Shown: piece after piece, positions 14,948 through 47,010 of the stretch
Numbering within the stretch: the first letter of the stretch is position 1
Layout: each line of letters begins with the position of its first letter
Origin: an uncultured Chloroflexia bacterium
GTDB lineage: Bacteria; Chloroflexota; Anaerolineae; Anaerolineales; E44-bin32
Direction of reading: 5' to 3'
Length of the DNA stretch: 64,000 nucleotides
NCBI GenBank assembly: GCA_963743255.1
Contig: CAVUPD010000001.1
Coordinates: 122,854-186,853 of the forward strand
Translations under genes and position numbers: made by a program
The notes under the pieces: generated by a model
What the model saw: only the letters and a program-made list of their open reading frames with translations
Told to the model about the DNA's origin: nothing
Databases searched by the model: none

Positions 14948-14951
14948 TCCC

Positions 14952-18083: not shown

Positions 18084-18090
18084 CTCCAGC

Positions 18091-27090: not shown

Positions 27091-27757
27091 GTGGCAGGCC
27101 GGTGTCAGGGGAGCGGCAGGCGTGTAGAACGCGTCCCATCTTCTTTCTGGACCGCTCCAAAGACCCCGGGGGTCCCAGATAATCGGTCGAACAAGGAACG
27201 GCGGCACGCAGGGAACTCGCCATGACGGGCGCAACACGCGTTGTGTCGCTCCCGAGGGCGTGAGGGGAGCGCGGCCCCAATTGCGCGGCCTTGGACCACG
27301 ATAGATAATGGGTGGGGACGGCCGAAAGTCGCCAGCCGTTCTCCTCGCGACTTGCCGTGATGACATCGTGTGGGGGTCGGTCTTGCCCGCTTCACCACGT
27401 ACGCCCGTCTTCGCAGCCATCCCGGTTCCGTCCCCGCAGGCCGGCAAGCAGCCCTGCCTGGGATTCCGAGGCCAATCTGCCGCTCGTGGAGACGGTCCTG
27501 GCGCGGTGCCTGGATCTCACCCCGCCGCTCAGGTCCTTCGGCACAGGTTCAAGTGCCCTTAAGATCCCTTTGGGGCAGTGTCTTTGATGGGTGGAACCTT
27601 AAGGGCCGTCTGCTGGACATTCCCCATGGTGGTGGCGCGGCACAAGTTGCTTCGATCGCAAGCGAGATTCGCCTTTCGCAAGTCAGGACACTCCTGAGTG
27701 GATGATCAGATCGGCGCCCCAGCCAACACGCCCCGCCCGGGCGCCGACGGAGGCCTC

Positions 27758-28965
27758 ATGTCTGAACAGCATCGCCCCTTGCTGGACGGAGTCATGGTTG
27801 TTGACCTGACGCGTGTACTGGCCGGACCGTATTGCACGATGATGCTTGGAGACCTGGGCGCGGAGGTCGTCAAGGTCGAAGAGCCGAGACTGGGCGATGA
27901 CACGCGTGCATGGGGACCGCCTTTCGCCCCGGGAGGCGAGTCGGCCTATTTTCTTTCTGCCAACCGAAACAAGAGAAGCCTGACGCTCAACCTGAAGACG
28001 GACGAGGGGAAGGCTATCTTACGGCGCTTGATCGCGCGCGGCGACGTCCTCGTAGACAACTTCCGCACCGGCACGCTGGAGAGTTGGGGGCTTCGACTAT
28101 CCCACCCTGCAATCGATCCGTCCGGGGCTGATTGTCTGCTCCATCACCGGCTACGGTCAGACGGGGCCGTACCGTCATCGACCGGGGTACGACTTCATGG
28201 TCCAGGCCATGGGTGGGTTCATGAGCCTGACAGGGCCGGCAGACGGCGAGCCCTTCCGGGCCGGTGTCGCCATCGCTGATCTCGGGGCGGGAATGTTCGC
28301 GGCCACATCGATCCTGGCCGCCCTCTTCGCGCGGGAGCGCACCGGGGACGGGCAGCGCATTGATATCTCTTTACTGGACACGCAGGTTGCGCTGCTGTCC
28401 TACGTGGCCAGCAATTTCCTCGTCTCGGGGCAGCCCCCCACCCGCTACGGGAACGGCCATCCCAATCTCGTTCCGTACCAGTCGTTCCGGGCCCAGGACG
28501 GATATTTCGCCTTTGCCTCAGGGAACGACTCCCAGTGGAAGCGCTTCTGTGAGAGAGTGGACAAGGTCCGAGTGGGCTGAGGATTCGCGCTTTGCTACGA
28601 ACAAGGCACGCGTCGAGAACCGTGGTGCTGTCGTCGAATTGCTGAGCGTTCTGTTTCGGACACGCCCGGCGCAGGCCTGGATCGACTTGTGCGAGGCGAT
28701 CGGGATTCCGGCGGCTCCGATCAATAGCGTCGACCGGGTCTTCGCCGATCCGCAAGTCATCGCGCGCGGGATGCGGACCGAGGTCGACCATCCGACCGCC
28801 GGATGCGTGCCGATGATCGGATCGCCTCTCTGCATCCCGACCTCCCCTGCGCAGATCTTCCGTGCGCCGCCCACCCTCGGGCAGCACACAGACGAAGTGC
28901 TTGTCAGTCTGCTGGGCTACACCGCGGACGAGGTGAGCGCCTGGCACCAGGCTGGCGTCATCTAG
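27758..28965 (+). CDS. family III CoA-transferase (CaiB/BaiF/Frc type), two apparent frameshifts (near 28090 and 28560)
   Basis: RBS GGAGG plus ATG 27758. The sequence reads LDGVMVVDLTRVLAGPYCTMMLGDLGAEVVKVE...SANRNKRS. Deleting one G from the G5 run at 28087-91 restores LESWGFDYPTLQSIRPGLIVCSITGYGQTGPY. The remaining parts lie in ORFs 28197..28580 and 28264..28965. Confidence 0.85.
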
Positions 28966-29060
28966 GCGCCTCAGCGCGATTCGGTCACTCGATCCGGACC
29001 GGTGCGCAGGCGTGAAGTCTGGATGGGGAGTATTCAGACGTACAGGCGGCGGATCGGGCT

Positions 29061-30822
29061 TCAGCCATCGCCGGCTGTAGTGCCTTCTGCGTTCCCAAGC
29101 GTCCGTTCCGTGGGGTGGGGACGCACGACTCGCTGCCCTGTCGGAGCATGCCCGGACTTCCCGATCAACTCGGGCGAGAGTCCAGGGGGAAACCCATACA
29201 TCTCAAGCAGGGGAGGGTCAGGCGGGCCCGGACGGACGACCGGGTAGATCCGCGCTGTCTCGCAGGCATGGGCCACACGCAGGAGGGCCGACTCATCAAA
29301 GTGCCGACCGACCAACATCATGCCCACAGGCAGGCCGTCGGAAAGCGCACACGGGACCGAAAGCGCGGGATGCCCGGTGACATTGAACGCTGCGGTGTTC
29401 GGGGTCATTTCCAGGTTGCGAGGAAAACTCTCCACCCACGATGTCTTTGCGTCAGGGAGGGCCGTGGCCTTCATCGGGGTGGTGGGCAGGAGCAGCACGT
29501 CGACCGTTGTCAGGGCCTCGTCGTAGGCCTGTCTGAGATGCAGCGCCAGATTCTGGGCCCTGGCGTAATAGCGGCCATCATAGCGGCGCAGCATCGCCTC
29601 CCCCAGGAGGATCTGAAACTTGATGGTCTCTGACAGGAGGTGGGGCTTGTCCCGGAATCCGCGGGCATAGGCATCGAGCAAGCTGAGTGGGTAGTATCCT
29701 TTCCAGTTGGTGCCTGTCCCCCGGCCCCGGAACATTTGGGCGGTCCGCCCCTCCACCGCAACGACACGCCAGATGTGACGCGCCTGACGGTGGAGGGGAA
29801 TGGAGATGCTCTTTACCTCCGCCCCGAGGTGAGCCAGGCGAGCAGCAGCCGCGCGCACCGCGGCATCTACATCGTCCTCCGAGGCGGATGGCCAGGCGAA
29901 ACCTTCCTCGAGCACCCCGACCCGCACGCCCTTCACCTCGCCCGTCAAGGCGCGGCTGTAGGCTTCGGGGATGCAGTGGGGCTGCCGGGGGTCCAGATCG
30001 TCTTCTCCGGCCACAGCTTCCAGCAGAAGGGCCAGGTCGATGGTCGTGTCGGCGATCAGGCCGACATGGTCCTGGGTCAGCTCGGCCGACGAAATCCCTG
30101 TGTACGGAACAAGGCCATACGTCGGCTTGAGGCCATACACGCCACACCATGCGCTGGGAATGCGGATCGAGCCACCCTGGTCTGCTCCCAAGGCCAGCTC
30201 GGCTTCACCGGAGGCAACCAGGGCGGCGGGGCCGCTGGTGGACCCCCCCGCAGAGCGACTGAGGGTCATGAGGATTGCGCACGGGGCCTGTATCCGAGGT
30301 GAAGCTGCTGCCGCCGGAGGAGAGATGCTCACAGACTCCTTTGCCCACGATTTCCGCTCCGGCGTCCAGCACACGGGTCACAATGGTGGCATCGACATCC
30401 GGCACGTAGCCTTCGATCACCCGAGAGCCGTTCATCATCGGTACACCGGCTACGCAGATGTTGTCCTTGACCACTACCCGCTTACCCCGCAGCGGGCCAT
30501 CCGCCTTCCCCTTGATGGAACATCTCCAGTACCAGGCGTTGAGGGGGTTCTCCTCCGGTCTCGGCGGCCTCACGTCCTCCCGCGGGTAGCGTACCGGAAG
30601 CGTTGGCTGGTCCGCCGCGGCCACCGCCTCAAAGGAGGCCAGGGGAGCTTGCATCAGGTCCCGGTAGGCTTGCAGGTCTGAGTCGTTCACATCCAGACCC
30701 AGCTCGTCGGACAGAGTGCGCAGGAATTCAAGGGAGGGGAGCTCTGGTCTCCCGATTGCCTTATCAGCCGCAGGCGAATTTGCCTGGGGCAGCTGTTGAA
30801 GCGAAAGGGAACCCTTCCTCAT
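29061..30822 (-). CDS. amidase-signature family hydrolase, one apparent frameshift near 30255; C-terminal end uncertain
   Basis: The N-terminus lies in ORF 30205..31071 (ATG 30822-20: MRKGSLSL...LRGKRVVVKDNICVAGVPMMNGS). The signature GGSTSGPAALVASGEAELALGADQGGSIRIPSAWCG lies in ORF 29061..30374. The last ~60 codons look non-coding-like. Confidence 0.8.
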
Positions 30823-31819
30823 CTTGACTCCGCGACGGTCTGAATGTGTCCGTTCAGTCACCCGTCGATGAAGATCTCGGACGTGGTGCGAAGAGCCAAT
30901 CGCACCAGGATCTGGGGAGAGTGTCTCTGCGCCCCTCCCAAGCTTCCCTATCGCCACCGCCCTCGACGTCGGGGAGGCGGGCGTCCGGATCACGGTGCAA
31001 TTCGATCCGATTGTCTTGGAGTGTGCCCTGCGCGTGCTCCGATGCGCCCCAGGCCGTGTGTCGCCGCCCACGGGTGTCTGTGTTTCATGAAGGGTGCGTC
31101 CTGGAACAACCGTGCGGCCTGATGCCTCACCCGTGCGCCGTGCACATGACGATCGACTGCCTCGACGAGTCCAAGGGACGATCCCTTGTCCCTTCGAACA
31201 TGCGTCAAGGTAGAAAGCACTTCGCGATCAGGCCGATGGACGTGAACCAAGGCGAATCCTAGCACACTCGGTCCTTGTTGCCTGATATCGGCCATTGAAC
31301 AGGTTGTCGCCAGGCCGTCCTAGGGGACTGTCCGAACCAAGCGCGGCACCTCATGTGGCATGTTCGTCAGTCATTTCACTCGGCGTGGTTTCAAGACCGG
31401 TCGTATCTCGACAAACCGTCTCCACGTCGGGCTCCCACTCCATGGTCAAGCCCGCGTGAGAAGGGGAATGGCCAGGGATCGCATACCTATTTCGATTGGC
31501 CGGACCAGTGCCTCACCTTGATTCGTCAAGCCAGAATGAATATACTTGACTATCCCTAAGGCCTCCTTTCAGTGGGAACCCAGCTCGTGCGATTGGAACC
31601 CCCGGGACCAGTTGCGCGCGAAGAATTCACGTCAAGCGGCCGCGCTTTCGAACCGTTGCTCCGGGGCGCGACCCGATGGACTTGAACCCGTGGCCCGCCG
31701 CGACCCCAGGGCCTTGAACCGGCGAGAAACGGGACGGCGAGGCCCGGCCTGTGAGTACGGCCCAGGTGACCTTGGGTGCCCGGCATCGAACCGGTCGGCT
31801 GATGAACTTGGGGGTGTAC

Positions 31820-31931: not shown

Positions 31932-33664
31932 ATGGCAGTCCTCAAGGCTGAAGTTCGTTCGGGCGCCTATTACGATTCAATCGTCCTCATGCAGCTGCAG
32001 CGGGCCTTGACGGAACAGCCCGGCATCCTCGACGCCGGGGTCGTCATGGGCACCGACGCCAACAAGGAAGTCCTGGCGCAGAGCGACCTGCTGGTCGCCG
32101 AAGCCGAGGCCGCCGGCAATGACGACCTGATCATCGTCGTGCGCGGCACGGATGACGACCCTGGCTCAAGCGGCGCTGGCAAAGGTGGATGAGCTCGTGG
32201 CCGCGCGCCGAGGTCGGACCGGCGACCAGGAGTACCACCCGCGCAGCCTTGAGACCGCGGCCAAGATGCTGCCCGAGGCCCAGTGGGTCCTGGTTTCCGT
32301 TCCGGGGCGCTACGCCGCCGGGGTGTCGCGAGACGCCTTGCGCCTGAACAAGCACGTCTTCCTCTACAGTGACAACGTCTCCCTCGAAGATGAGGTCGCG
32401 CTCAAACAGGAGGCGGCCCAGAAGGGGCTCCTGGTCATGGGGCCGGATTGCGGCACGGCGATCGTGAACGGCATCGGCCTGGGGTTTGCCAACAAGGTCC
32501 GCAAGGGCCCCATCGGAGTTGTGGCGGCGTCCGGCACCGGCCTGCAGCAGGTCACCGTGCGGATCCACCAGATGGGAGGCGGCATCACGCATGCCCTGGG
32601 TACCGGGGGGCGCGATCTTTCGGAGGCGGTCAACGCCGTCACCGCCCGCCAGGGCCTCGACTTGATGGCTCGCGACCCGGATGCCAGGGTGATCGTCCTG
32701 GTGTCGAAGCCGCCGTCACCCAAGATCGCCGACACTCTGATCCAGGCGGCGCGTTCGGTCGGTAAGCCCGTGGTGGTCAACTTCATCGGCTATGCCAGCG
32801 CCTCGCGCCGAGTGGACAATGTCCTCTTTGCCACTACCTTCGATGAGACCGCCGAGCTGGCCATCCGGCTGATCGACTCGCCCGAAGACTTCGCCGCGCA
32901 GCCGGATGTGTCCAAGTTCGCGCCCGGCCAGCGCTACCTGCGAGGCCTGTTCTCGGGCGGTACGCTGCAGTACGAGGCCTTGTTGATCCTGCAGGACTAC
33001 GTTCCCGTCGTCTACTCGAACGCCCCGCTGGACAAGAAGAACAAGCTCGAGGACTCGCTGGTCAGCAAGGCGTCACACGGTCATCGACCTGGGCGAGGAC
33101 GAATTCACGGTCGGCCGGCTGCATCCGATGCTGGACAACGATCTGCGCATCCGGCGTCTCGAGAAGGAAGCCGCGGATCTGGAAGTGGCCGTCATTCTGT
33201 TGGACGTCGTTCTGGGTTACGGCGCCCATGCCGACCCGGCCAGTGAGCTGGCTCCGGCGATCGCCGCCGCTATCAAGACTGCCCAAGAGGCCGGCAGACA
33301 GTTGGAGGTGGTGGCGATCGTCTGCGGCACCGATGGTGACCCGCAGGGAATCGAGACCCAGATCAAGCAGCTGCGGGATGCCGGCGCCAAGACCGAGATC
33401 AGCAATGATGCCGCCGCTCGTTATGTGGGTCGATTGCTGCAGGCGATCGAGCGCGCCTCCCAGCCCGGCACCGGTCCGACGATGAAGCCGGTTGATCTGC
33501 TGGCGCTGAAGAACCCCCTGGCAGGGATCAACGTCGGACTGGAATCCTTTGCCGAGAGCCTCAGAGACCAGGGCGCTCAGGCTGTTCACGTGGACTGGAA
33601 ACCCGTTGCCGGAAGCAGTGAACGGTTGGTGAGTATCCTGGAGCGGATGAGACAGGCCAAGTAG
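31932..33664 (+). CDS. fdrA: FdrA-like protein (succinyl-CoA-synthetase-alpha-like CoA-binding/ligase fold), two apparent frameshifts (near 32155 and 33070)
   Basis: MAVLKAEVRSGAYYDSIVLMQLQ..., then LVMGPDCGTAIVNGIGLGFAN...GVVAASGTGLQQV...HALGTGGRD, then HTVIDLGEDEFTVGRLHPMLD. The pieces lie in ORFs 31932..32192, 32152..33246 and 33128..33664. Confidence 0.82.
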
Positions 33665-33932
33665 GTCTTGGGTCGATCGTCTTGAGGGCCGTGGCCCCAC
33701 CGGCGTGGAGGTTCATCTCCTCGGATGTCACACCTCATCAGGGCCGCTCAAGCGATGAACGGCTTGTCGCCGGTGCGGGGTTCCCGATTCGGTCGATCCA
33801 CGCGTGTGCCGCTCCAACCCGGCACTCTCGTCCAGCGTGTAGTCCCGGCCCTGCGCCCGTGGAAGATCGGTCTTTCTTGAGTCTGCACACGGGATGGGCG
33901 TAAGGTCCCCCGCCAACGATCTGGAGGTGCCC

Positions 33933-35175
33933 GTGGATATCGACAAAGCGAACACCGAAGTCACCCAGCGCATGATGGACGCCCGGCCGATCGCCACCAC
34001 GATGGCCAAGGCGATCGAAGTCGTGCCCGGCCTGCACGAGAACATGCTCTTGCATGCGGGTCCACCGGTGACCTGGGAGCGCATGGCCGGACCGATGCGC
34101 GGCGCCATGATGGGCGCGTTGATCTTCGAGGGCAAGGCCAAGAACGGCGACGACGCCGAGAAGATGCTCAAGTCAGGCAAGATCGAGTTCTCGCCCTGCC
34201 ATGAGCACATGTGCGTCGGCCCCATGGCCGGCGTGATCTCGCCTTCCATGCTGGTCTATGTCGTTGAGAATGCAGACCCACAAGATCAAGTGCTTCTCCA
34301 ATCTCAATGAAGGCCGCGGCAAGGTCCTGCGCATGGGCGCCTACAGCCCGGAGGTCCTGGAGAAGCTGCGCTGGATGGAGTCCAGCCTCGGCCCGACGAT
34401 CAAGGCCGCCCTGGAAGCCATCGGCGGCATCGATGTCCGCGCCATCCTTTCCAAGGCGCTTCACATGGGCGATGACGGGCACAACCGCCTGGACGCCGCC
34501 TCGGTCCTGTGGACTACCCAACTGGCCCCGTACATCGCCAAGACCGCCAAGGACAGCGCCACGGCGTTCGAAGTCATCAAGTTCCTGGGCGAGAACGCCT
34601 TGAGCATTCTCAATCCCGTCATGGCCGGCTGCAAGTCCATGACCGCCGCCGGTCACAACGTGGAAGGCAGCACCATCGTCACCATCATGGCACGCAACGG
34701 CACCGATTTCGGCATCAAGGTCAGCGGCCTGGGCGACCAATGGTTCACGGCGCAGTCCCCGATCGTCAAGGCGCTGTACTTCCCCGGCTTCACCGAGGCC
34801 GACGCCTGCCGCGATATCGGCGACAGCGTCATCACCGAAACGGCCGGCATCGGCGGCTTTGCCATGGCGACCGCCCCGGCCCTGGTCACGTTCATCGGCG
34901 GCGTGCCCAGGGACGCCATCAATACCACGCTCGACATGTACGAGATCACCTACGCCGAACACAAGCAGTTCTCCATCCCCTACCTTGACTTCCGCGGCAC
35001 CCCGACCGGAATCGATATCCGCAAGGTGGTCGAAAAGCAGATCGCCCCGCGGGTGAACACGGGCGTCGCCCACAAGGATCCGGGCGTTGGACAGGTCGGG
35101 GCGGGCGTCGTTTCCGCCCCCATGAGCGTGTTCGAAGACGCGCTGGTTGCCTTCGCGGATCGCTACGGCTTCTAG
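33933..35175 (+). CDS. DUF1116 (YlbE-like) protein, one apparent frameshift near 34275
   Basis: RBS GGAGG plus GTG 33933 (alternative ATG 33894). Sequence: DIDKANTEVTQRMM...LLHAGPPVTWERMAGPMRGA...CHEHMCVGPMAGVISPSM, then NLNEGRGKVLRMGAY...GDSVITETAGIGGFAMATAPA. The pieces lie in ORFs 33894..34310 and 34258..35175. Confidence 0.8.
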
Positions 35176-35203: not shown

Positions 35204-36879
35204 ATGGACCGCGAGAGCTTCATCACGATGATGACGCCAGGCCAAGCTGCACGACCTGACTCAAGCCTGCAGCGTGTTCACTCCCCCCTGGCCCGGGGAG
35301 AAATCGCTGGAAGTGCATTTCTTCAAGCGCGTCACCGGCGCGTACGGCGGCGGGCAGGGCGCCAACGGTCAGATCCTGAACTGGAGCAATACGGTCGGCA
35401 CGCACCTGGTGGGAGAACGGGCATTTCACTCCGGCGGCCGCGCCATCGCCGACATTCCGCTGAAGGACCTGTGCGGTCCCGGCGTGATCGTCGACCTTTC
35501 GGACATGGTCTCGGATTACAGCATCATCACCCCGGAGATGATCACCAAGAAAGCCGAGGTCAAGAAGGGCGACATTCTGATCATCAACACCGGGTATCAC
35601 AAGTACTCCTGGGACCAGCCGCAGGTGAATAACCCGCAAGGCGCAGGGCGGCGTGGAATCCATGGAGTTCGGGTTTCTCGTGCGCCATCCGGGCCCTTCC
35701 ATGGCCTTCTACAAGTGGGCCCTGGACATGAAGCTCAAAGTCGTCGGCGTGGATTGCGGCGCCGCCGAACATCCCATGAACACCCCGATCCGCCGGATGC
35801 ACGAAAATCACTTCAAGCTGGCCGAGGAGAAGCTGAAGAAGGAAACCGGCAAGACCTGGGACGAGACCTTCCCGCAGGGCGAGTACTACGAGCTCACCCA
35901 CCTCACCATGCCGAAGCAGCATCTCGTGCTGGCCGAGTGCATCGTGGGCGAGATCGACCAGCTGAAGAACAAGCGCGCCTGGATCCAGATCATGCCGATT
36001 CCCTTCGTGGAAGTGGAGACCGCCTGGGCGCGCGTCTCTGCCCTGACCGCGCCGGCTGGAATGAGCGATGACGCGTTCATGGCCGCGATGCAGAACTCGG
36101 AAATGATCGACATGACCGTGCCCTTCAGCGTGCAGACCCCGCAATGGCTCAACTACGTTCCGTTGAGCGTCACCTACACCAAACGCGTGGGCGGACAGTA
36201 CTTCGGCATGGGACGCAACGGCTCCATCTGCAATGCCAGCATCCACCTCGGCACGCACATGGACGGCGAGAAGCACTTCTATCCCAACGGACGAACGATC
36301 GGACAGGTGCCGCTGTCGGAATGGGTCGGCCCCGGCGTCATCGCCGATATCTCGCAGCTGGTCAGCGATTCCAGCGTGTACACCCCCAAGATGATTGAAG
36401 GCGTGGTCGACATCCACAAGGGCGACATCCTGGTCATCAAGACGGGGTGGAACAAGTTCGGCTGGTGCAGCAAGGATTCGGATGAGTTCCGCTACATGGT
36501 CAAACACCCGGGGCCCTCGGCTGACTTTTCGAAGTGGGCGGCCGACCTGGGACTCAAGTGGATCGGCGTGGACGCCGTATCCGCCGACCACCCCATGAAC
36601 ACCATCATGCGCCTGTGGCATCCCAAGACCTTCGCCGAGGCCAACGCCAAGCTGATCAAGGACTTCGGCAAGGATTGGGATCAGATGTACCCGCTGGAAG
36701 GCTTCTACCAGGACATGCACCTCAATCTGTTCCCCAAGAAGATCGTGCACGCCGAGAACCTGGCGGGGGATATCGCCACGGCACAGAGCGGACGTTATTA
36801 CATCGGCTGCTACCCGCAGAAAGCCATGGAAGCGGAATCGATGTGGGGCCGCTTTGTGGCCTTCAAAGAGGGAAAGTGA
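35204..36879 (+). CDS. tandem (two-domain) cyclase/kynurenine-formamidase-fold protein; N-terminal copy has degenerate metal motif; two apparent frameshifts (near 35243 and 35640)
   Basis: RBS GGAGG plus ATG 35204. Domain A carries KLHDLTQACSVFTPPWPGE...SNTVGTHLVGERAFH...VGVDCGAAEHPMNT. Domain B carries MIDMTVPFSVQTPQW...ASIHLGTHMDGEKHFY...IGVDAVSADHPMNT. No stop separates the two domains in ORF 35653..36879. Confidence 0.75.
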
Positions 36880-36928
36880 GGAACCAGGCCGAGAGCCAGA
36901 GGCGAGGACCCGCTGGTATGTGTCGGCG

Positions 36929-37792
36929 ATGATTCTGGTCACCGGTGCAGCCGGCAAGACAGGTCGGGCGGTGTTGCGCGCGCTGTCTGGCCGAGGGGAG
37001 CCTGTCCGGGCGCTGATCCACCGCGCCGACCAGGCGACTTCTCTGAAGGCGCTCGGCGTCCAGGAGACGCTGGTCGCAGACCTGCTCGACCAGGCTGCCA
37101 TGCGACGGGCCGTGGACGGGGTGCGGGCGATCTATCACATGGCGCCCAATGTCAGCCCGGACGAGCTTCCCATGGGCAAGGCTGTCATCGCCGCCGCGCA
37201 ATCCGTAGATGTGGAGCACCTGGTGTTCCACTCGGTGCTGCATCCGCACATCGAGGCCATGCCGCATCACTGGCAGAAAGCGCGTGTCGAGGAGCTGCTC
37301 TTCGCTTCCGGCGTGCCCTTCACCATCCTGCAGCCGACCGCCTATATGCAGAATGTCGCTGCGGCCTGGGATCAGATTCTGTCGCAGGGCAGGTATCCGG
37401 TGCCGTACTCGCCCGAGACGCGCCTGAGCCTGGTCGACCTCGAAGACGTGGCCCAGGCGGCGGCCCGGGTGCTCACCGAACCCGGGTACACCGGCGCTAC
37501 GATCGAGTTGGTCGGCACGCCGGGCATGTCCCCACGCGACATCGTGGAGGTATTGAGCGCCGAGCTGGACCGCCCCGTGGCCGTCGAGGTAGTACCTCTG
37601 GGATTGTGGGCAGAAAGGGCCCGGGCCTCGGGCCTGGGGGAGTATCAGGTATCGGCGCTGACCGGGATGTTCGCTTACTATGAAGAACACGGACTCACCG
37701 GCAGCCCGCAGGCTTTGACTGGTGTCCTCGGGCGGCAGCCCACTTCCTTCTCGGCGTTTGTCCGGCAGGTCATCCAGGAGCACACACTGTGA
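36929..37792 (+). CDS. NmrA-like/SDR-family NAD(P)-binding protein
   Basis: MILVTGAAGKTGRAVLRAL is a Rossmann GxxGxxG motif. The overall pattern is NmrA-like (HFVFHSVL, TILQPTAYMQN). Confidence 0.8.
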   Translation: MILVTGAAGKTGRAVLRALSGRGEPVRALIHRADQATSLKALGVQETLVADLLDQAAMRRAVDGVRAIYHMAPNVSPDELPMGKAVIAAAQSVDVEHLVFHSVLHPHIEAMPHHWQKARVEELLFASGVPFTILQPTAYMQNVAAAWDQILSQGRYPVPYSPETRLSLVDLEDVAQAAARVLTEPGYTGATIELVGTPGMSPRDIVEVLSAELDRPVAVEVVPLGLWAERARASGLGEYQVSALTGMFAYYEEHGLTGSPQALTGVLGRQPTSFSAFVRQVIQEHTL

Positions 37793-38355
37793 CCACCGAG
37801 TTGGCCAACTACCTGGAACGACTAGAGGACCTGCACGGCCAGATCACGGGCATGGTCGCCGGCTTATCTGCGGAAGCCCTCAACTGGCGGCCGCTCCCAG
37901 GGTCGGGCGACCACGCCACCAATTCCCTGGCGGCTCTGGCCGCCCACGCCGCCGGAGCCGAGCATTTCTGGATTGCGGAAGTAGTCGGCGGCCGTCCGGC
38001 GACCCGCGACCGGGAGGCGGAACTGGCCACGCAGGCCGCCTCTTCGGCGGAGGCTGTCCAGCTGCTGGAGAACACGGCGCTGGAGACCAGGGAGATCTTC
38101 CTGACGCTGAAGGATCCTGACCTGGAGGCCACGCGTCAGACCGCAGGCCGTACGGTCCCCGTGCGTTGGTGCCTGTTGCATGTGATCGACCACACCTCCC
38201 TTCACCTGGGGCACATGCAGATCACCTTCCAATTGTGGGCGGGCGGGCAGAGCATGCCGTCGCCGCATTGGTATGACCGTCTGCCTCACCGACCAGAGAA
38301 CGAGCAGAGATCCACGCAAGGTTTGGCCGATGGCCCAGGAGATGAAAGTCTATGA
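37789..38355 (+). CDS. DinB-family (four-helix-bundle metalloprotein) protein
   Basis: GTGA overlap with the upstream gene. LERLEDLHGQI...LNWRP...NSLAALAAHAAGAEHFW...IDHTSLHLGHM is the His-triad pattern of the DinB_2 type. Confidence 0.7.
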   Translation: MTTELANYLERLEDLHGQITGMVAGLSAEALNWRPLPGSGDHATNSLAALAAHAAGAEHFWIAEVVGGRPATRDREAELATQAASSAEAVQLLENTALETREIFLTLKDPDLEATRQTAGRTVPVRWCLLHVIDHTSLHLGHMQITFQLWAGGQSMPSPHWYDRLPHRPENEQRSTQGLADGPGDESL

Positions 38356-39233
38356 AGCCAGCCCCCTTCGATTACTACGCGCCCACAACGGTCGAGCAAG
38401 CCCTGGCTCTCCTGGCCGAGCACGGCTACGAGGCCAAGGTCCTGGCGGGCGGGCAGAGCCTGGTCCCGATGATGAACTTCCGCCTGGTCCAGCCTTCAGT
38501 ACTGGTGGACCTGAACTCCATCCCGGACCTGGCGTTCATTCAACCCAACGAGGATGGCGGTCTGCGCATCGGCGCGCTGACGCGACACTATCAGGTCGAG
38601 ATGGATCCTCTGGTTGCAGCACGGATGCCCCTGCTCCACGAAGCCGTGCCCAGGATCGGCTATCCCCAAATCCGCCGGCGCGGCACGATGGGCGGCAGCT
38701 TGTGCCACGCGGATCCGTCGGCTGAGCTCGTGGCCGTGAGCGTTGCCCTGAACGGGCGCTTCCGACTTCGCAGCCCCAAGGCCGAACGTTGGGTCGTGGC
38801 GCAGGACTTCTTCATCGGGCTGTTCACCACGGTCCTCGAGCCCGATGAGCTGATGGTCGAGGTGGCCCTGCCACCCCTGCCGGCGCGAACCGGAACGTCC
38901 TTCATGGAGGTTGCCCGCCGGCGTCACGATTTCGGTCTGGTCGGGGTCGCGGCGATCGTATCCCTGGACGGAAAGGGAGTCATCCGGCAGGCGCGGATGG
39001 TGTTTCTGAGCGCCGGCGACCGGCCGATGCAGGCCCATCGGGCGGCGGAGGCACTAACGGGACAGCTACCGACGCCGGAAGCGATCCGGGCTGCGGCGGA
39101 ACTCGCCGCCACGGACGAGATCGATCCCTGCAGCGACATTCACGCCACGGCCGAGTTCCGCCGACATCTGGCAAAGGTTCTGGCTCGGCGCGCCTTGGAT
39201 CAAGCTTGCCGGCGCGCGGCGGGGAAGGAATAG
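38352..39233 (+). CDS. molybdenum hydroxylase FAD-binding (medium, CoxM-like) subunit, set 1
   Basis: ATGA overlap with the upstream gene. FDYYAPTTVEQALALL...KVLAGGQSLVPMMNFRL...RRGTMGGSLCHADP, with a CO_deh_flav_C-like C-terminus. Confidence 0.88.
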   Translation: MKPAPFDYYAPTTVEQALALLAEHGYEAKVLAGGQSLVPMMNFRLVQPSVLVDLNSIPDLAFIQPNEDGGLRIGALTRHYQVEMDPLVAARMPLLHEAVPRIGYPQIRRRGTMGGSLCHADPSAELVAVSVALNGRFRLRSPKAERWVVAQDFFIGLFTTVLEPDELMVEVALPPLPARTGTSFMEVARRRHDFGLVGVAAIVSLDGKGVIRQARMVFLSAGDRPMQAHRAAEALTGQLPTPEAIRAAAELAATDEIDPCSDIHATAEFRRHLAKVLARRALDQACRRAAGKE

Positions 39234-39234
39234 C

Positions 39235-39754
39235 ATGGAAACCACGGAGCCCACCATGCACAAGCTCTTCGATCTGGCACTGACGGTCAACGGCACACGC
39301 TATGAACAGGCGGTCGAGCCGAGACTGCTGCTGAGCGATTTCCTGCGTCACGATCTCGGCCTGACCGGCACGCATGTGGCCTGCGAGCACGGCGTGTGCG
39401 GTGCCTGCACCGTCCTGCTCGACGATGAGCCCATCCGCTCCTGTCTGGTCTTTGCCGTTCAAGCGCACGGTCACAGCGTCACCACGGTCGAAGGTCTGGG
39501 CGACATCGACCAGCTGCACCCGGTCCAGGAGGCCTTTCGGCAGGCGCACGGCGTGCAGTGCGGGTTCTGTACGCCGGGGATCCTGACCACGGTGGTGGCC
39601 TTCCTGGCCGAGAACTCCCGACCCGAGCGAGGAAGAGATCCGCGAGGCGCTTTCCGGAAACCTGTGCCGCTGCACTGGCTACCAGCACATCGTCGACGCC
39701 GTCCGGCTGGCCGCCCAGAACATGAAAGCCGCACACCATCAGCCCGCCCGATGA
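39235..39754 (+). CDS. molybdenum hydroxylase [2Fe-2S] small (CoxS-like) subunit, set 1; one apparent frameshift near 39615
   Basis: [11 protein letters not shown] and CGFCTPG are the cluster motifs. The C-terminal [25 protein letters not shown] is recovered in another frame and ends at TGA 39752-54. Confidence 0.85.
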
Positions 39755-39800
39755 TGGACACGCCTTCCCTCCGTCACGGGGTGACCCCAGGAGCAGTTCA

Positions 39801-42174
39801 GTGACCAAGACACTCATCGGACAGCGCGTGCTGCGAAACGAGGATCCCCGCCTGCTGACCGGGCAAGCCCAATTCGTGGACGATGTGGAAATCCCCGGTC
39901 TGCTGCACGCCGCCTTCTTGCGCAGTGACCACGCCCACGCCCGCCTGCTCGGCCTTGATGTGAGCGCCGCCCGCCAACGACCGGGCGTGGTTGCCGTCTT
40001 CACGGCCGAAGATATGGGCGACGATTGGCAGCCGGGGCCCCCGTTGGTTTCTCCTCCGCCGACCGCCAAGGATGTCGTGTTCTATTCGCGCCGCCAGGTT
40101 CCGCTGGTCAAAGACAAGATTCGACATGCGGGCGAGGCGATCGCCGTGGTCATCGCCGAGAGCCGCTACATCGCCGAAGACGCAGTCGAAGACATCGTCG
40201 TGGACGTGGAACCGCTGGAGGCAGTGGTCGATCTGGAGAAGGCTATGGAGCCGGGCAGTCCCCTGGTGCACGATGACCTGGAATCGAATCTGGCCGCTCA
40301 TCTGTTCCAGAAGAAGGGTGACTATGAAGCCGCCCGCGGGAAGGCCGATCTGGTCCTCAAGCGCCGAATCATCATTGACCGCGGGGCGGCGGCCGCCATG
40401 GAGAATCGCGGCATCGTCGCCGAGTGGGACGAGAAGAGCCAGCATCTGACGATATGGGATACGACCCAGGCGCCGATCCCGATTCGCAACGGGACGGCGG
40501 CCAGGCTGGGCCTGTCGGAGAACCAGGTGACGGGTGATCGCCCCCTTCATCGGCGGCGGCTTCGGCCCCAAGATGATGATGTTCTACGCCGAGGAGCTGG
40601 TGATCCCCTGGGCGGCGAAGAAGCTGAAGCGCCCGATCAAGTGGATCGAGGACCGGCGGGAGAACTTCTACGCCACCACCCAGGAGCGCGGGCAGATCCA
40701 TGATGTCGAAATCGCCCTGAGCCGGGACGGGCACATCCTGGGTTTGAAGGACGTGTTCCTGCACGACACCGGCGCCTACGACCCCTACGGCCTGACCATC
40801 CCCCTCAACACCCAGTGCCATGCGATGGGGGGGTACGACGTCAAGAACTTCAGCAGCGAAGTCAGCGTGGTTTTCACCAACAAGACGCTGGTCACCCCCG
40901 TTCGGGGAGCCGGACGCCCGCAGGGCATCTACGTGATCGAACGCATGCTGGATGCCGCCGCCCGAGAGCTGGGCATCGATCCGGTGGAGATCCGCCGGCG
41001 CAACCTGATCCCTCCGGATGCCTTTCCCTATGAGCACGGGATCATCGACCAGGCCTTTTCGCCGCTGATCCTGGACAGCGGCAACTACTGGCCCGTGATG
41101 CAGAAGGCACTGGAGATGATCGGCTACGAGCAGTTCGTCCGCGACGAGCAGCCACGCCTGCGCAAAGAGGGGAGACGTGTGGGCATCGGCATCGTCCCCT
41201 TCATCGAGTCGACGGGCGTCGGCCCCTATGAAGGCGCGCGTGTGACGGTCGAGGCCAGCGGCAAGATCCATGTCGCCACGGGTGTCGGCACCCAGGGGCA
41301 GGGCCACTTCACGGTCTTCGCCCAAGTCGTGGCCGAACAGCTCGGGGTGGCGGTGAGCGATGTGCGCATCGTGTCCGGCGACACCGCCGAGTTCCACTGG
41401 GGAACCGGCACCTTCGCCAGCCGCGGGGCCGTCGTCGCCGGCAATGCCATCCACGCCGCCGCCTCGATTGTGCGCCGCAAGGTGCTGGCACTGGCCAGCA
41501 AGCAGCTGGACACACCCGAGGACGAGCTGGAGCTGGACGGTGGCATGGTCCGGGTGGCGGATCTTCCGCGCAAGTCGATCAGCCTGGCCGAATTGGCCTC
41601 GCTGGCCAACCCTTTGCGCGGTGCCGTTGAGCCGGGTACCGAGCCCGGCCTGGAGGCCACGGCCTACTTCGGCCCGCGCTACGGCGCCACGGCCTTCGGC
41701 GCCCATGCCATGATCCTCGAGATCGATCCGGAAACGATGATGATCGAGATCAAGCGCTACGTCACGGTCGAGGATTGCGGCACGGTGCTCAACCCGCTGA
41801 TCCTGGAGGGCCAGATCCACGGGGGCGTATCCCTGGGCATCGGCAACGCCTACTACGAGAAGCTGCACTTCGACGAGAACGGGCAGCTGTTGAACGCCTC
41901 CTTTGCCGACTACCTGATCCCGTCGGCGACGGAGATGCCGCGCATCGAGGTCGGCCATATGGAAACTCGCTCCCCTCTGAACGAACTGGGCACCAAGGGA
42001 GTCGGTGAGGCGGGAACGATCCCGGTGCCCGCCCTTTTCGCTCAGGCCGTCGAGAACGCGCTGGCCGATCGGGAGCTGGAGATCCTGGAGAGTCCCCTCA
42101 GCCCGAACCGCCTGTATGAACTGCTTGAGCCGGAAGGAGGCTGCGATGAAGGTCGAAGGTCAGTACACCTTTGA
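39801..42174 (+). CDS. molybdopterin-binding large (CoxL-like) subunit of a xanthine-dehydrogenase-family hydroxylase, set 1; one apparent frameshift near 40527
   Basis: LRNEDPRLLTGQAQFVDD, then FIGGGFGPK and TPVRGAGRPQG (not the CODH VAYRCSFR loop), then GVGEAGTIPVPA. The pieces lie in ORFs 39801..40703 and 40534..42174. Confidence 0.88.
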
Positions 42175-42603
42175 CGGCCCTCGCGAGATCCTGTGGGAGC
42201 TGGTGCGGGATCCGACAGGTCCTGGCGACATGCCTGCCGGGGTCGCCGAGCGTGCGTCAGACGGGAGCGCGTGAGTACGAGGGCGAGATCGGCATCCGGG
42301 TCGGCCCCATTTCGGGGTCTTTTGCCGGCCAGCTTTCGGTCACGAACGAGGTGCCGCCCGCCAGTTGCACCCTGACAGTGGAGGGCAAGGGAAAGGTCGG
42401 CTTTGTCAAGGGTGTCGGAAACATCGACATGACGGCGCAGGGCCCGGGCAAGACCTCTGATGAAATACACCGGTGAAGTGCAGATTGGCGGCAAGGTCGC
42501 CAGCGTAGGCCAGCGCCTGTTCGACTCGGTGAGCCGAGGCATGATTGAACAAGCCCTGGGCAAGTTGAATGAAACGTTGCAGGCACGGAGCGCTGCGGGA
42601 TAG
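42146..42603 (+). CDS. coxG: CoxG-like SRPBCC-fold protein, two apparent frameshifts (near 42215 and 42456)
   Basis: RBS GGAAGGAGG plus ATG 42146. MKVEGQYTFDGPREILWELVRDP, then VLATCLPG...GEIGIRVGPISGSFAGQLSV, then MKYTGEVQIGGKVASVGQRLFDSVSRGMIEQALGKL, ending at TAG 42601-03. Confidence 0.75.
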
Positions 42604-42871
42604 CACTGGCAGGCTGGAAGGTCGGCTGCCGAACCAAGCCAGGGCTTGCGTGTGGCATATTCGGCCAGTTGCCTGTAATATCGAAGGCACGGCTGGTGGC
42701 CATGCGGTTGGCTCCAGCCAGGCTGCAAACCGGACCGATCGCGGTCAGGCCCCAACAGAATGCCAAAGGATGAGACTCGCGAAGGGAGGTCACCGGCCCG
42801 TCGATAGCCCAATCATGCTCCGTCTCTCCAAGATCCGTTTCCATTCTCAGATGATCGCGAGGGAGGAAGTG

Positions 42872-44176
42872 ATGAAGCCCAAGAAGTCCTTCGTGCTCGC
42901 AGCACTGCTCGTGGTCGCCGGCATGCTGCTCGGCTCCTGTGCGCCCGCGGCTACGCCTACGGAAGCGCCTCCGGTCGAGCAACCCACGGCAGCAGCGGAG
43001 CAGCCCACGGCAGCGGTCGAGCCGCCCGCCGCGGAACCGATGCCGGTGACCCTGGCGATTGAGCACTTCAGTGTCATTGCCGGGACCACCTGGTCCGGGG
43101 CGCAAGACCGCGCCGGCAAGCGCATCGCCGAGAAGTACCCTAACGTCACCTATGTCTACCGCGAGAACGTCGCTCCCGATCAGACCAATCCCTTCGCCGA
43201 AGAGCTGATCGCCAGCGGCGCCAACATCGTCGTCGGCAATGCGGAATTCATGGGAATGCCACTGAAGGATATTGCCGACAAGTACCCCGACGTGTACTTC
43301 GCCTCCGTCATCGCCAGCGACCTGACGACCAAGCCGAATTTCATTCGGTTCTTCCCCAAGCAGTATCAGGCCCTGTACCTGGAAGGGCTGATCGCCGGGG
43401 CGCTGACCAAGACCGGCAACATCGGCATCACTTCCGCCTTCCCGTGCGTGCAGGTGATCCGGCGCCAGGCTGGCTTCATCCTGGGCGTGCAGGATGCGGC
43501 CGCCATGCTCAACAAGCAGATCACCGTGTACGTCAAATTCGCCGGCGACTGGTACCTGCCCGCCGATGAGCGCGCCATCGCCGAGACTCTGGTCGACACC
43601 TACAAGGTGGATGTCCTGACCCAGCAAACCGACTCCAGCTCCACCATGGACGTGGCCAAGGAGAAGGGCGTCTGGTTCGTGGGCAAGGACATGGACATCG
43701 TGGGTGAATACGGTTGGTCCGACACGAACACCGTCGCCGTCTCGTTCGACACGCGCTGGGAAGTGATCTACGAGCAGATGGTCCAGGAGTATCTGGCCGG
43801 CAACATGACGCCGGAGACCATCATGTACCCGGGCATGGAGACAACCATGACCCTGGCCGACGGCACCGTCGAGCCGACGGTGGACCTGATGAACGCGGGC
43901 AAGATCGGCGTCGACGCCATCAGCCCGGCGGCGCTCCCGCTCATCCCGCAGGAGATCATCGATCTCGTCAAGCAGCGACGCGAGCAGATGATGGCGGGTA
44001 CGTGGGATCCATTCACGGCGCACGAATTCGTGAGCAACGGAACGGGCCTGGAGCTCGAGGGCCTGCCGATCCCGGCCGCGGGTACCGTAGTCAAGGCCGC
44101 CGACGTGGCTCCGACGACGGAGTTCCTGCTGGGCGCGTTCAACTTCGATCTGCAGGGCACGACCATCCTGAAGTAG
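42872..44176 (+). CDS. BMP-family (PnrA/Med-like) ABC transporter substrate-binding lipoprotein
   Basis: RBS GGGAGGA plus ATG 42872. Lipobox LLGSC, then a Pro/Ala/Thr/Glu linker, then a BMP-type fold (IVVGNAEFMG...GNIGITSAFP...YVKFAGDWYLP). Confidence 0.85.
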   Translation: MKPKKSFVLAALLVVAGMLLGSCAPAATPTEAPPVEQPTAAAEQPTAAVEPPAAEPMPVTLAIEHFSVIAGTTWSGAQDRAGKRIAEKYPNVTYVYRENVAPDQTNPFAEELIASGANIVVGNAEFMGMPLKDIADKYPDVYFASVIASDLTTKPNFIRFFPKQYQALYLEGLIAGALTKTGNIGITSAFPCVQVIRRQAGFILGVQDAAAMLNKQITVYVKFAGDWYLPADERAIAETLVDTYKVDVLTQQTDSSSTMDVAKEKGVWFVGKDMDIVGEYGWSDTNTVAVSFDTRWEVIYEQMVQEYLAGNMTPETIMYPGMETTMTLADGTVEPTVDLMNAGKIGVDAISPAALPLIPQEIIDLVKQRREQMMAGTWDPFTAHEFVSNGTGLELEGLPIPAAGTVVKAADVAPTTEFLLGAFNFDLQGTTILK

Positions 44177-44222
44177 CACGCTGCGTCGGTCCGCGTGAGA
44201 TGTGACGTCTAGTCACAGACAG

Positions 44223-44269
44223 GTGAGGCTCTCGTCCTGTGGGAGCAGACCTTGGGACGAGAGCCTCAC
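44223..44269 (+). promoter_or_regulatory. perfect 15-bp stem-loop between the binding-protein and ATPase genes
   Basis: GTGAGGCTCTCGTCC (44223-37) pairs with GGACGAGAGCCTCAC (44255-69), with a 17-nt loop and no U tract. It may be an attenuator or an mRNA-stability element. Confidence 0.5.
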
Positions 44270-47009: not shown

Positions 47010-47010
47010 A

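What the first reader, a model, noticed from the sequence alone, without database searches (positions are those of the whole stretch)
31932..35175. FdrA-like + DUF1116 pair without the usual third partner or carbamate kinase
To my knowledge, in E. coli the fdrA-ylbE-ylbF genes (renamed allFGH) have been reported to encode oxamate carbamoyltransferase of anaerobic allantoin degradation. They sit next to a carbamate kinase gene.

Here FdrA-like (31932-33664) and DUF1116 (33933-35175) are adjacent. No DUF2877 (YlbF-like) or carbamate kinase gene follows. Instead the next gene is a tandem cyclase-fold protein, followed by Mo hydroxylases. This argues either for a two-component variant of that enzyme or for a different, CoA- or carbamoyl-linked chemistry on a ureide-like intermediate.

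A 265-bp gap (33665-33932) separates the two genes.
Basis: partly seen in the sequence, partly recalled or inferred. Interest (0 to 1): 0.55.

Follow-up and report, generated by a model that had tools for sequence, protein, structure and literature searches.

The report
AllF-AllG pair in nucleobase-breakdown island
Two adjacent genes for the AllF and AllG subunits of the carbamoyl-phosphate-forming enzyme known from E. coli allantoin breakdown sit in a widely conserved cluster with a cyclase-fold hydrolase and molybdenum hydroxylases. The "missing" third subunit and the carbamate kinase are encoded elsewhere in the same genome, so this is a rearranged variant of a known enzyme rather than a new one.

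Summary
An FdrA/AllF homologue (31932-33664) and a DUF1116/AllG homologue (33933-35175) are adjacent, and the window holds no AllH or carbamate kinase. As assembled, though, AllF lies in three reading frames and AllG in two.

These breaks are assembly errors, not decay. This Chloroflexota genome and a 92-96% identical relative differ by about 0.85 isolated single-base indels per kb over 117 kb, and every AllF, AllG and cyclase segment has dN/dS of 0.05-0.23.

The genome has one AllH homologue on another contig and two carbamate kinases. Among 301 Chloroflexota genomes, all 52 others with AllH also have AllG, 9 have AllG alone, and the two genes are often 16 kb to over 1 Mb apart. An unlinked AllH is therefore common.

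In 80 related loci from several phyla, a cyclase-fold gene follows AllG in 51 of 70 scorable loci. In the 37 loci with long flanks, Mo hydroxylases occur in 34, AllH in 7 and carbamate kinase in 2.

Best reading: an AllFG(H)-type acylurea phosphorylase in an undescribed nucleobase-catabolic module. The substrate is unknown.

The parts
31932..32192 (+). AllF (FdrA-like), N-terminal roughly 75-residue domain. It is in frame 0 and ends in an out-of-frame tail and stop after a 1-nt insertion near 32156.
   Evidence: G004 reads straight through here. dN/dS against G003 is 0.23.
32152..33072 (+). AllF core (CoA_binding / Succ_CoA_lig domains), frame 1. An ATG at 32152 could restart translation if the split is real.
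   Evidence: Pfam. E 3e-60 to E. coli FdrA structure 3DMY, with the ITHALGTGGRDLS stretch aligned to ITHAIGLGGRDLS. NF004760 FdrA, 302.9 bits. dN/dS 0.06-0.08.
33074..33664 (+). AllF C-terminal part (Ligase_CoA domain), frame 2, after a G000-only 1-nt insertion at 33073.
   Evidence: Pfam PF00549, E 2.5e-28. NF004760, 172.4 bits. The indel is absent from G003. dN/dS 0.12.
33665..33932 (.). Intergenic gap between AllF and AllG.
   Evidence: About 85% identical to G003 and shorter in G004. No Rfam match. No unusual fold. dN/dS about 1.2 in the one frame tested.
33933..34273 (+). AllG (DUF1116), N-terminal part, frame 0, starting at GTG.
   Evidence: Pfam AllG profile positions 1-33. G004 has an ATG at the same codon. 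dN/dS 0.05.
34275..35175 (+). AllG C-terminal part, frame 1, after a G000-only 1-nt insertion near 34274.
   Evidence: Pfam AllG positions 30-215, E 4.6e-72. G003 has one intact 413-residue AllG. That protein matches PDB 3CLQ at E 2e-120. dN/dS 0.16.
35204..36879 (+). Tandem cyclase-fold (PF04199) protein directly after AllG. It is broken by G000-only insertions near 35236 and 35637.
   Evidence: Pfam. Intact 566-residue frame in G003. A cyclase gene follows AllG in 51 of 70 related loci. It is not AllH-like by hhalign.
36854..38355 (+). NmrA-like and DinB/MST-like genes.
   Evidence: Pfam. NmrA recurs in 14 of the 80 related loci.
38346..42174 (+). Mo hydroxylase set 1: FAD subunit, 2Fe-2S subunit and large MoCo subunit. 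The 2Fe-2S gene is frame-broken near 39616 and the large-subunit gene near 40531.
   Evidence: Pfam. The 39616 insertion is shared with G003 and absent from G004. Mo hydroxylase genes occur in 34 of 37 fully flanked related loci.
42569..47886 (+). Bmp/PnrA-type ABC transporter: binding protein, ATPase and two permeases.
   Evidence: Pfam.
27698..31071 (.). CoA-transferase family III gene (+ strand, frame-broken) and amidase gene (- strand, frame-broken) upstream of AllF.
   Evidence: Pfam. Amidase recurs in 29 and CoA_transf_3 in 11 of the 80 related loci. The segment is missing at this position in G003.

Best explanation
The two genes encode the AllF and AllG subunits of an AllFGH-type enzyme. 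The one characterised member of this kind, E. coli oxamate carbamoyltransferase, splits an N-acylurea (oxalurate) with phosphate into carbamoyl phosphate and an amide.

Here the pair belongs to a conserved module: AllF, AllG, a cyclase-fold hydrolase and a Mo hydroxylase, often with an amidase and a nucleobase or nucleoside transporter.

Inferred sequence of steps:
1. A Mo hydroxylase hydroxylates an imported N-heterocycle, most likely a nucleobase, without needing O2.
2. The cyclase-fold enzyme and/or the amidase opens or trims the ring to an acylurea or ureide.
3. AllFG, together with the single unlinked AllH homologue on contig 13, phosphorolyses that intermediate.
4. One of the two carbamate kinases encoded elsewhere turns the carbamoyl phosphate into ATP, NH3 and CO2.

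The frame breaks in both genes are assembly errors, so the genes are taken as intact and functional.

Shown: family membership, gene order and its conservation, AllH and carbamate kinase encoded in trans, and purifying selection. Inferred: the substrate, the order of steps, and that the contig-13 AllH is the working partner.
For: Family membership:
- AllF has CoA_binding and Ligase_CoA domains. It matches E. coli FdrA structure 3DMY at E 3e-60. Its pieces score 302.9 + 172.4 bits on NF004760, against a cut-off of 433.
- AllG scores 242.5 + 43.4 bits on PF06545, against a cut-off of 27. The intact G003 orthologue matches PDB 3CLQ at E 2e-120.

The genes are functional:
- dN/dS against G003 is 0.05-0.23 for every AllF, AllG and cyclase segment, like the neighbouring genes.
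- Indels run at the background rate of 0.85 per kb.

Partners in trans:
- There is one AllH homologue, at C13:41924-43069 (PF11392, 66.7 bits). Its G003 orthologue keeps all 19 invariant residues of the AllH alignment.
- Carbamate kinases lie at C17:9793-10716 (360.6 bits, over the TIGR00746 cut-off) and C22:111048-111953. Each sits beside a Bmp-type ABC transporter, and the C17 copy also beside carbamoyltransferase genes.

Genome-level co-occurrence:
- In 41 relatives (G000 included), 26 genomes have both AllG and AllH, 2 have AllG only, 2 have AllH only and 11 have neither.
- In 300 other Chloroflexota genomes at least 90% complete, 52 have both, 9 have AllG only and none has AllH only. Distances between the two genes range from adjacent to over 1 Mb.

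Module conservation:
- AllF lies upstream in 65 of 69 loci, and a cyclase gene lies within 1 kb downstream in 51 of 70.
- Of 37 loci with long flanks, 34 have a Mo hydroxylase.
- Recurrent neighbours include amidase, CN_hydrolase, xanthine/uracil permease, CoxG, NmrA and CoA-transferase III.
- Relatives such as G011:C4 carry amidase-AllF-AllG-cyclase-MoCo subunit-AllH in one string.

Biochemistry of the type enzyme: all three subunits are required, and carbamate kinase is the next step (PMC11326118).
Against: - The contig-13 AllH sits between PMT_2 glycosyltransferase genes and next to an integrase. That context is unrelated to catabolism.
- It resembles the AllH of the separate Bmp-ABC/AllH-AllG-AllF type of operon (38-40% identity) more than the AllH of cyclase-linked clusters.
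- The same-genus genome G004 carries a different AllH, only 30% identical, at the edge of the island.
- AllH is itself frame-broken in G000.
- Nine AllG-positive Chloroflexota genomes have no AllH (two of them hold only fragmentary AllG matches), and two of the nine have AllF-AllG-carbamate kinase operons.
- The substrate and every pathway step are inferred from gene content only.
- The genome is 80% complete.
Confidence: 0.55

Rival explanations
1. A true two-subunit variant. In this lineage AllF and AllG work without AllH, possibly with the cyclase-fold protein as a functional neighbour. The contig-13 AllH homologue would then do something unrelated.
For: - AllH lies within 10 kb in only 7 of 37 fully flanked related loci.
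- Nine of 61 AllG-positive Chloroflexota genomes at least 90% complete have no AllH match; two of these hold only fragmentary AllG matches.
- Among those nine, G159 and G335 carry PucR-AllF-AllG-carbamate kinase-isochorismatase operons with no AllH.
- The contig-13 AllH lies among glycosyltransferase genes.
Against: - E. coli needs all three genes (PMC11326118).
- AllH was never found without AllG, and 52 of the 61 AllG-positive genomes have it.
- The G003 orthologue of the orphan AllH keeps every invariant family residue.
- The cyclase protein has no detectable similarity to AllH.
Confidence: 0.25
2. CoA chemistry rather than carbamoyl transfer. The pair would act as an ADP-forming acyl-CoA synthetase, like succinyl-CoA synthetase, on an acid released by the hydrolases. 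It would feed the nearby CoA-transferase and thiolase-like enzymes.
For: - AllF is a homologue of the succinyl-CoA synthetase alpha subunit, and NCBIfam names the family 'acyl-CoA synthetase FdrA'.
- CoA-transferase III and thiolase-like genes recur near the module.
- One relative places a carboxyltransferase and an OAD-beta decarboxylase subunit directly upstream of AllF.
Against: - The only biochemically characterised member is a transcarbamylase, not a CoA ligase (PMC11326118).
- No ATP-grasp beta subunit is encoded next to AllF.
- The genome-level tie to AllH, and in other lineages to carbamate kinase, fits carbamoyl chemistry.
Confidence: 0.1
3. A decaying operon. The frameshifts would be real and AllF, AllG and the cyclase would be pseudogenes.
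For: - There are five frame breaks within 5 kb in the assembly.
- One break, near 32156, is shared with the related genome G003.
Against: - dN/dS is 0.05-0.23 on both sides of every break.
- The indel density is the same across 117 kb, including genes that are intact in the other genome.
- A second shared break hits the essential 2Fe-2S motif, yet the downstream frame stays conserved. This points to a systematic error.
Confidence: 0.03

Closest known systems
E. coli oxamate carbamoyltransferase AllF-AllG-AllH (formerly FdrA-YlbE-YlbF), with carbamate kinase AllK (PMC11326118)
   Same: - AllF has the same domain architecture and strong sequence similarity to FdrA (E 3e-60 to 3DMY).
- AllG is in the same Pfam family.
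- An AllH homologue and carbamate kinases are present in the genome.
   Different: - The genes do not form an allFGHK operon. AllH and the kinases lie on other contigs.
- The allantoin genes that make oxalurate were not detected.
- The pair is instead tied to a cyclase-fold hydrolase and Mo hydroxylases.
- AllH here is about 324-340 residues, against 271 in E. coli.
allFGHK clusters beside biuret/triuret hydrolase genes in comammox Nitrospira and ammonia-oxidising archaea (PMC12625717)
   Same: These are environmental, non-enterobacterial AllFG-type genes. They lie next to bmpA-nupABC-type transporters and amidohydrolases in proposed purine-product catabolism.
   Different: Those clusters keep AllH and AllK adjacent. 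They pair with BiuH/AtzF rather than a cyclase-fold gene and Mo hydroxylases.
Succinyl-CoA synthetase alpha subunit (SucD)
   Same: The CoA-binding and CoA-ligase domains of AllF match SucD structures at E 1e-8 and weaker. The stretch containing the conserved His (ITHALG) is retained.
   Different: There is no beta subunit, and the partner is AllG instead. The characterised activity of the family is carbamoyl transfer.
PDB 3CLQ, an uncharacterised DUF1116 protein
   Same: It aligns over nearly the full length with the G003 AllG at E 2e-120.
   Different: The entry carries no functional annotation.
Cyclase-family (PF04199) metal hydrolases such as arylformamidase KynB
   Same: The gene after AllG has two PF04199 domains and a weak arylformamidase match of 59.5 bits.
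   Different: The arylformamidase match is far below the equivalog cut-off of 223 bits. The protein is a tandem fusion here and a single domain in most relatives.

Membership tests
AllF / FdrA (NCBIfam NF004760; Pfam CoA_binding + Ligase_CoA) | Full-length match to the FdrA subfamily model and the CoA_binding + Ligase_CoA architecture | tested here: met
   The pieces score 302.9 bits (profile 82-357) and 172.4 bits (profile 375-554), against a cut-off of 433 for the whole protein. The intact relative G011:C3 scores 494.5 bits. The match to 3DMY has E 3e-60. The sum is over separate frames, because the assembly breaks the gene.
AllF / FdrA | One continuous open reading frame of about 555-580 residues | tested here: not met
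   The gene lies in three frames in the assembly. It is judged an artefact or, for the first break, possibly a split at a domain boundary.
AllG (Pfam PF06545, formerly DUF1116) | Match over the Pfam gathering score across the whole domain | tested here: met
   Scores are 43.4 bits (profile 1-33) and 242.5 bits (profile 30-215), against a cut-off of 27. The G003 orthologue matches positions 1-215 in one frame at 302 bits.
AllFGH oxamate carbamoyltransferase system | An AllH (PF11392, formerly DUF2877) subunit gene adjacent to allF-allG | tested here: not met
   There is no PF11392 or tblastn match in the window.
AllFGH oxamate carbamoyltransferase system | An AllH subunit encoded somewhere in the genome | tested here: met
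   C13:41996-42334 scores 69.9 bits against a cut-off of 25. The invariant residues are kept in the G003 orthologue.
AllFGH oxamate carbamoyltransferase system | A physical AllF-AllG-AllH complex | not testable with these tools
   It needs co-purification or a solved complex.
AllFGH oxamate carbamoyltransferase system | Carbamate kinase (allK) in the same operon | tested here: not met
   There is none in the window. Two lie elsewhere, on C17 and C22.
AllFGH oxamate carbamoyltransferase system | An upstream pathway that makes oxalurate (allantoinase, ureidoglycolate dehydrogenase AllD) | tested here: not met
   There is no Ldh_2 match. The best allantoinase-model match is 148 bits against a cut-off of 358. 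There is no OHCU decarboxylase. The genome is 80% complete, so absence is not proven.
AllFGH oxamate carbamoyltransferase system | Oxalurate + phosphate giving oxamate + carbamoyl phosphate | not testable with these tools
   This needs an enzyme assay.

The most novel reading that the evidence does not exclude
The AllF-AllG-cyclase-Mo hydroxylase module is an undescribed, oxygen-independent pathway for a nucleobase, and it conserves energy.

One chemically coherent version runs as follows:
1. Uracil is hydroxylated to barbiturate by the Mo hydroxylase.
2. The cyclase-fold hydrolase opens the ring to malonurate (ureidomalonate), the one-carbon-longer homologue of oxalurate.
3. AllFG phosphorolyses it to carbamoyl phosphate and malonamate. 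Carbamate kinase turns the carbamoyl phosphate into ATP.
4. The amidase, CoA-transferase and, in some relatives, a carboxyltransferase/OAD-beta decarboxylase dispose of the malonate.

In this reading AllFG has a substrate other than oxalurate, and in some lineages it works without AllH.
Probability: 0.2. Interest if true: 0.7.

Novelty: new variant of a known kind. Interest (0 to 1): 0.4.

Why it matters
AllFGH was assigned a function only in 2024, and only in the E. coli allantoin operon. This work shows that a large AllF-AllG subfamily has a different fixed context. It occurs in Chloroflexota, Acidobacteriota, Gemmatimonadota and other phyla. There a cyclase-fold hydrolase follows AllG and Mo hydroxylases lie nearby, while AllH and carbamate kinase are usually not adjacent.

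Two consequences follow. Annotating these genes as "oxamate carbamoyltransferase of allantoin degradation" may be wrong about the substrate. The module also marks a testable, probably anaerobic, nucleobase-degradation route that yields ATP through carbamoyl phosphate in abundant uncultured bacteria.

There is also a practical caution. This genome and a sister assembly carry about one indel per kb, some of them shared. Apparent pseudogenes or split genes in them should not be read as biology.

Tried and rejected
- **Co-fold of AllG and AllH.** The G003 AllG and the G003 orphan AllH were submitted with alignments. The job gave no verdict (score 0.00) and is not used either way.
- **AllH remnant in the window.** tblastn with four AllH types found nothing below E 0.05.
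- **Cyclase protein, or the unknown 540-residue protein of the AllH-free operons, as a divergent AllH.** hhalign probability was below 1% for both.
- **Regulatory RNA in the 265-nt gap.** There was no Rfam match at E up to 1, and the fold was no better than shuffles.
- **Pseudogenisation.** Rejected on dN/dS and on the genome-wide indel rate.
- **Programmed frameshift at the first AllF break.** Rejected. The frame-1 reading of the overlap is the one conserved in G004, so the shift is at the inserted base and not at a slippery or stop site. A similar shared insertion also hits the 2Fe-2S gene.
- **G004's island-edge AllH as the orthologue of the contig-13 AllH.** Rejected. They are only 30% identical, while the orthologous DNA of these genomes is about 82-89% identical.
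- **Literature search for the oxidative pyrimidine pathway.** Searching barbiturase, ureidomalonase and related terms found nothing that links it to these genes.
- **First block-wise dN/dS script.** It picked wrong frames for some blocks and was redone with explicit frames.
Full report
**What is in the sequence**

The window is G000:C1:122854-186853 of a 3.4-Mb, 23-contig genome with 66% G+C. Its estimated completeness is 79.9%. Record titles of the closest AllG loci place it in Chloroflexota, near Anaerolineae.

Pfam finds the FdrA architecture in 31932-33664: CoA_binding, Succ_CoA_lig and Ligase_CoA. It finds AllG (PF06545, the former DUF1116) in 33843-35175. Two cyclase domains (PF04199) follow.

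Downstream lie these genes:
- NmrA-like and DinB-like genes;
- a three-subunit Mo hydroxylase;
- a Bmp-type ABC transporter;
- a second Mo-hydroxylase FAD subunit.

Upstream lie a family III CoA-transferase and a divergently oriented amidase.

The AllF core matches the E. coli FdrA crystal structure 3DMY at E 3e-60. The His-containing stretch ITHALGTGGRDLS aligns with ITHAIGLGGRDLS. The intact AllG of the sister genome G003 matches PDB 3CLQ at E 2e-120.

**The frame breaks**

- AllF runs in frame 0 to about 32156, in frame 1 to 33073, and in frame 2 to the stop at 33664.
- AllG changes frame near 34274.
- The cyclase gene changes frame near 35236 and 35637.

G003 is a genome of the same genus and is collinear with G000 over more than 116 kb at 90-96% identity. 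The two genomes differ by 409 indel events there. Of these, 99 are isolated and not a multiple of three, which is 0.85 per kb. At least 30 break a frame in G000 where G003 has a long open frame, and 17 do the reverse. Most are single-base insertions in the broken genome. The 5-kb stretch of interest holds five such indels, which is the background rate.

Codon-wise comparison with G003 gives dN/dS of 0.05-0.23 for every AllF, AllG and cyclase segment on both sides of each break. The neighbouring genes give the same range. The breaks are therefore assembly errors, not decay.

The break near 32156 is shared with G003. G004, a short-read-style assembly of the same genus, lacks it and reads straight through. 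If the break were real, it would split off the N-terminal roughly 75 residues. That is exactly the part missing from the 480-residue 3DMY chain. An ATG at 32152 could then restart translation.

A second insertion shared by G000 and G003 but absent from G004 lies in the 2Fe-2S subunit near 39616. In frame it removes the NLCRCTGY cluster motif, yet the shifted frame still encodes that motif perfectly. Both shared insertions sit next to the bases CGACCC. I therefore take the shared indels as systematic errors (about 65%) rather than a real gene split (about 30%).

**The gap**

The AllG start at GTG 33933 is supported by an ATG at the same codon in G004. The gap is about 265 nt in G000 and G003 and about 110 nt in G004. 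In more distant relatives it is 30-50 nt. It has no Rfam match and no unusual fold.

**The missing partners**

The window holds no AllH (PF11392, the former DUF2877) and no carbamate kinase. The genome does hold them elsewhere.

There is one AllH homologue, at C13:41924-43069 (66.7 bits). Its G003 orthologue keeps all 19 invariant residues of an 11-sequence AllH alignment.

There are two carbamate kinases, at C17:9793-10716 and C22:111048-111953. Each is beside a Bmp-type ABC transporter, and the C17 copy is also beside carbamoyltransferase-family genes.

The AllH locus is odd in several ways.
- It lies between PMT_2 glycosyltransferase genes, in both G000 and G003, and in G000 next to an integrase.
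- It resembles the AllH of a second operon type, Bmp-ABC/AllH-AllG-AllF as in G007:C190, at 38-40% identity. It resembles the AllH of cyclase-linked clusters less.
- G004 instead has a different AllH, only 30% identical. It lies about 150 nt from the homologue of window position 54331, at the edge of the same island.

**How general is this**

Among 41 relatives (G000 included), 26 genomes have both AllG and AllH. Two have AllG only, two have AllH only and 11 have neither.

I also sampled 300 other Chloroflexota genomes at least 90% complete. Of these, 52 have both genes, 9 have AllG only (two of them only as fragments) and none has AllH alone. AllH is usually single-copy even where AllG has two to four copies. 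The distance between the two genes ranges from adjacent, through 16-94 kb, to more than 1 Mb or different contigs of near-complete assemblies. An unlinked AllH is thus common, and AllH tracks AllG at genome level.

Kin are not independent, so these counts describe the sample and are not a statistical test.

**The conserved module**

I scored the 80 closest AllG loci in a collection of one genome per species. They come from Chloroflexota, Acidobacteriota, Gemmatimonadota, KSB1, Bacillota, Spirochaetota and others.

| Feature | Count |
|---|---|
| AllF directly upstream | 65 of 69 scorable loci |
| Cyclase-fold gene within 1 kb downstream, same strand | 51 of 70 scorable loci |
| Mo hydroxylase (loci with at least 7 kb on both sides) | 34 of 37 |
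| Cyclase (same 37 loci) | 33 of 37 |
| Amidase (same 37 loci) | 14 of 37 |
| AllH (same 37 loci) | 7 of 37 |
| Carbamate kinase (same 37 loci) | 2 of 37 |

Other recurrent neighbours are an ABC ATPase (21 loci), CN_hydrolase (17), xanthine/uracil permease (15), CoxG (14), NmrA (14), CoA-transferase III (11) and a thiolase-like protein (10).

Two relatives show the range of layouts.
- G011:C4 has FAD subunit, amidase, AllF, AllG, cyclase, MoCo subunit and AllH in one string.
- G011:C3 has MoCo subunit, amidohydrolase, 2Fe-2S, carboxyltransferase, OAD-beta, AllF, AllG and cyclase, without AllH.

The window's gene set is therefore a standard form of a widespread module, not a chance neighbourhood. 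The 80 loci were chosen for similarity to this AllG, so the numbers describe this subfamily only.

**Mechanism**

The only characterised member is E. coli AllFGH. It needs all three subunits and converts oxalurate plus phosphate to oxamate plus carbamoyl phosphate. Carbamate kinase then uses the carbamoyl phosphate (PMC11326118).

Here I found no AllD-type dehydrogenase, no OHCU decarboxylase and no allantoinase over the cut-off. The caveat is the 80% completeness. Allantoin-derived oxalurate is therefore not the obvious substrate.

The constant partners are a Mo hydroxylase, a cyclase-fold metal hydrolase, an amidase and a nucleobase or nucleoside importer. The most economical reading is hydroxylation of an N-heterocycle, hydrolytic ring opening to an acylurea, phosphorolysis by AllFG(H), and ATP formation by carbamate kinase.

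Family membership, gene order and its conservation, selection, and the trans-encoded partners are shown. The substrate, the step order, and the use of the contig-13 AllH are inferred.

**Rivals**

A two-subunit variant remains possible, at about 0.25. G159 and G335 are 96% and 92% complete and have no AllH match. They carry PucR-AllF-AllG-carbamate kinase-isochorismatase operons. The unknown 540-residue gene that follows is not AllH-like, and neither is the cyclase protein.

CoA-ligase chemistry (about 0.1) rests on homology to succinyl-CoA synthetase alpha and on CoA-handling neighbours. It lacks a beta subunit and runs against the one biochemical precedent.

Real pseudogenisation is unlikely (about 0.03).

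**Verdict**

The local architecture is real, conserved and probably points to a substrate other than allantoin-derived oxalurate. The absence of AllH and carbamate kinase from the locus is not evidence for a two-component enzyme, because both are encoded in trans and unlinked AllH is common in this phylum.

I found no paper describing the AllF-AllG-cyclase-Mo hydroxylase module. The closest is a report of allFGHK next to biuret-hydrolase genes in nitrifiers (PMC12625717). I rate it a new variant of a known kind, of moderate interest.

Noticed in passing
window 39600-39640 (2Fe-2S subunit of Mo hydroxylase set 1): G000 and G003 share a 1-nt insertion that G004 lacks. In frame it removes the NLCRCTGY iron-sulfur motif, but the shifted frame still encodes it perfectly. 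Like the shared AllF insertion near 32156, it sits beside CGACCC. This suggests a systematic error common to both assemblies.
   Followed up: partly
whole window and 60 kb on either side (G000:C1 103-228 kb): There are about 0.85 isolated frame-shifting indels per kb relative to G003. They are mostly single-base insertions and not in homopolymers. Many genes in this genome will look split or pseudogenised, and the 80% completeness estimate is probably depressed by this.
   Followed up: yes
window 27115-31817: The CoA-transferase III and amidase segment is missing at this position in G003. G003 has 1.4 kb there, holding an unrelated frame. In G004 the CoA-transferase gene lies divergent to AllF with no amidase between them. 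This edge of the island varies within the genus.
   Followed up: partly
L061 (G004:C323) 17093-18097, next to the homologue of window 52576-54331: G004 carries an AllH gene at the edge of the island, where G000 and G003 have the third cyclase paralogue (window 54393-55274). It is only 30% identical to the AllH of G000 and G003.
   Followed up: partly
L004 (G000:C13:32000-51999) 7934-12374: The orphan AllH lies between PMT_2/PIG-V-type glycosyltransferase genes and, in G000 only, next to a phage-type integrase. AllH itself is frame-broken in G000.
   Followed up: partly
L147 (G159:C161) 5631-12281 and L154 (G335:C47) 1445-9421: These loci hold PucR regulator, AllF, AllG, carbamate kinase, an isochorismatase-family hydrolase and an unknown protein of about 535 residues. 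The genomes have no AllH match. They are candidates for an AllH-independent form of the enzyme.
   Followed up: partly
L016 (G011:C3) 3916-11460: A carboxyltransferase and a Na+-decarboxylase beta subunit (OAD_beta) lie directly upstream of AllF-AllG-cyclase. This would fit decarboxylation of a malonyl- or methylmalonyl-CoA-type product.
   Followed up: no
L032 (G000:C17) 5646-12959 and L033 (G000:C22) 10623-16963: There are two near-duplicate clusters of carbamate kinase with a Bmp ABC transporter. The C17 copy also has two carbamoyltransferase-family genes upstream, one of them aspartate-carbamoyltransferase-like. The C22 copy ends at the contig edge.
   Followed up: no
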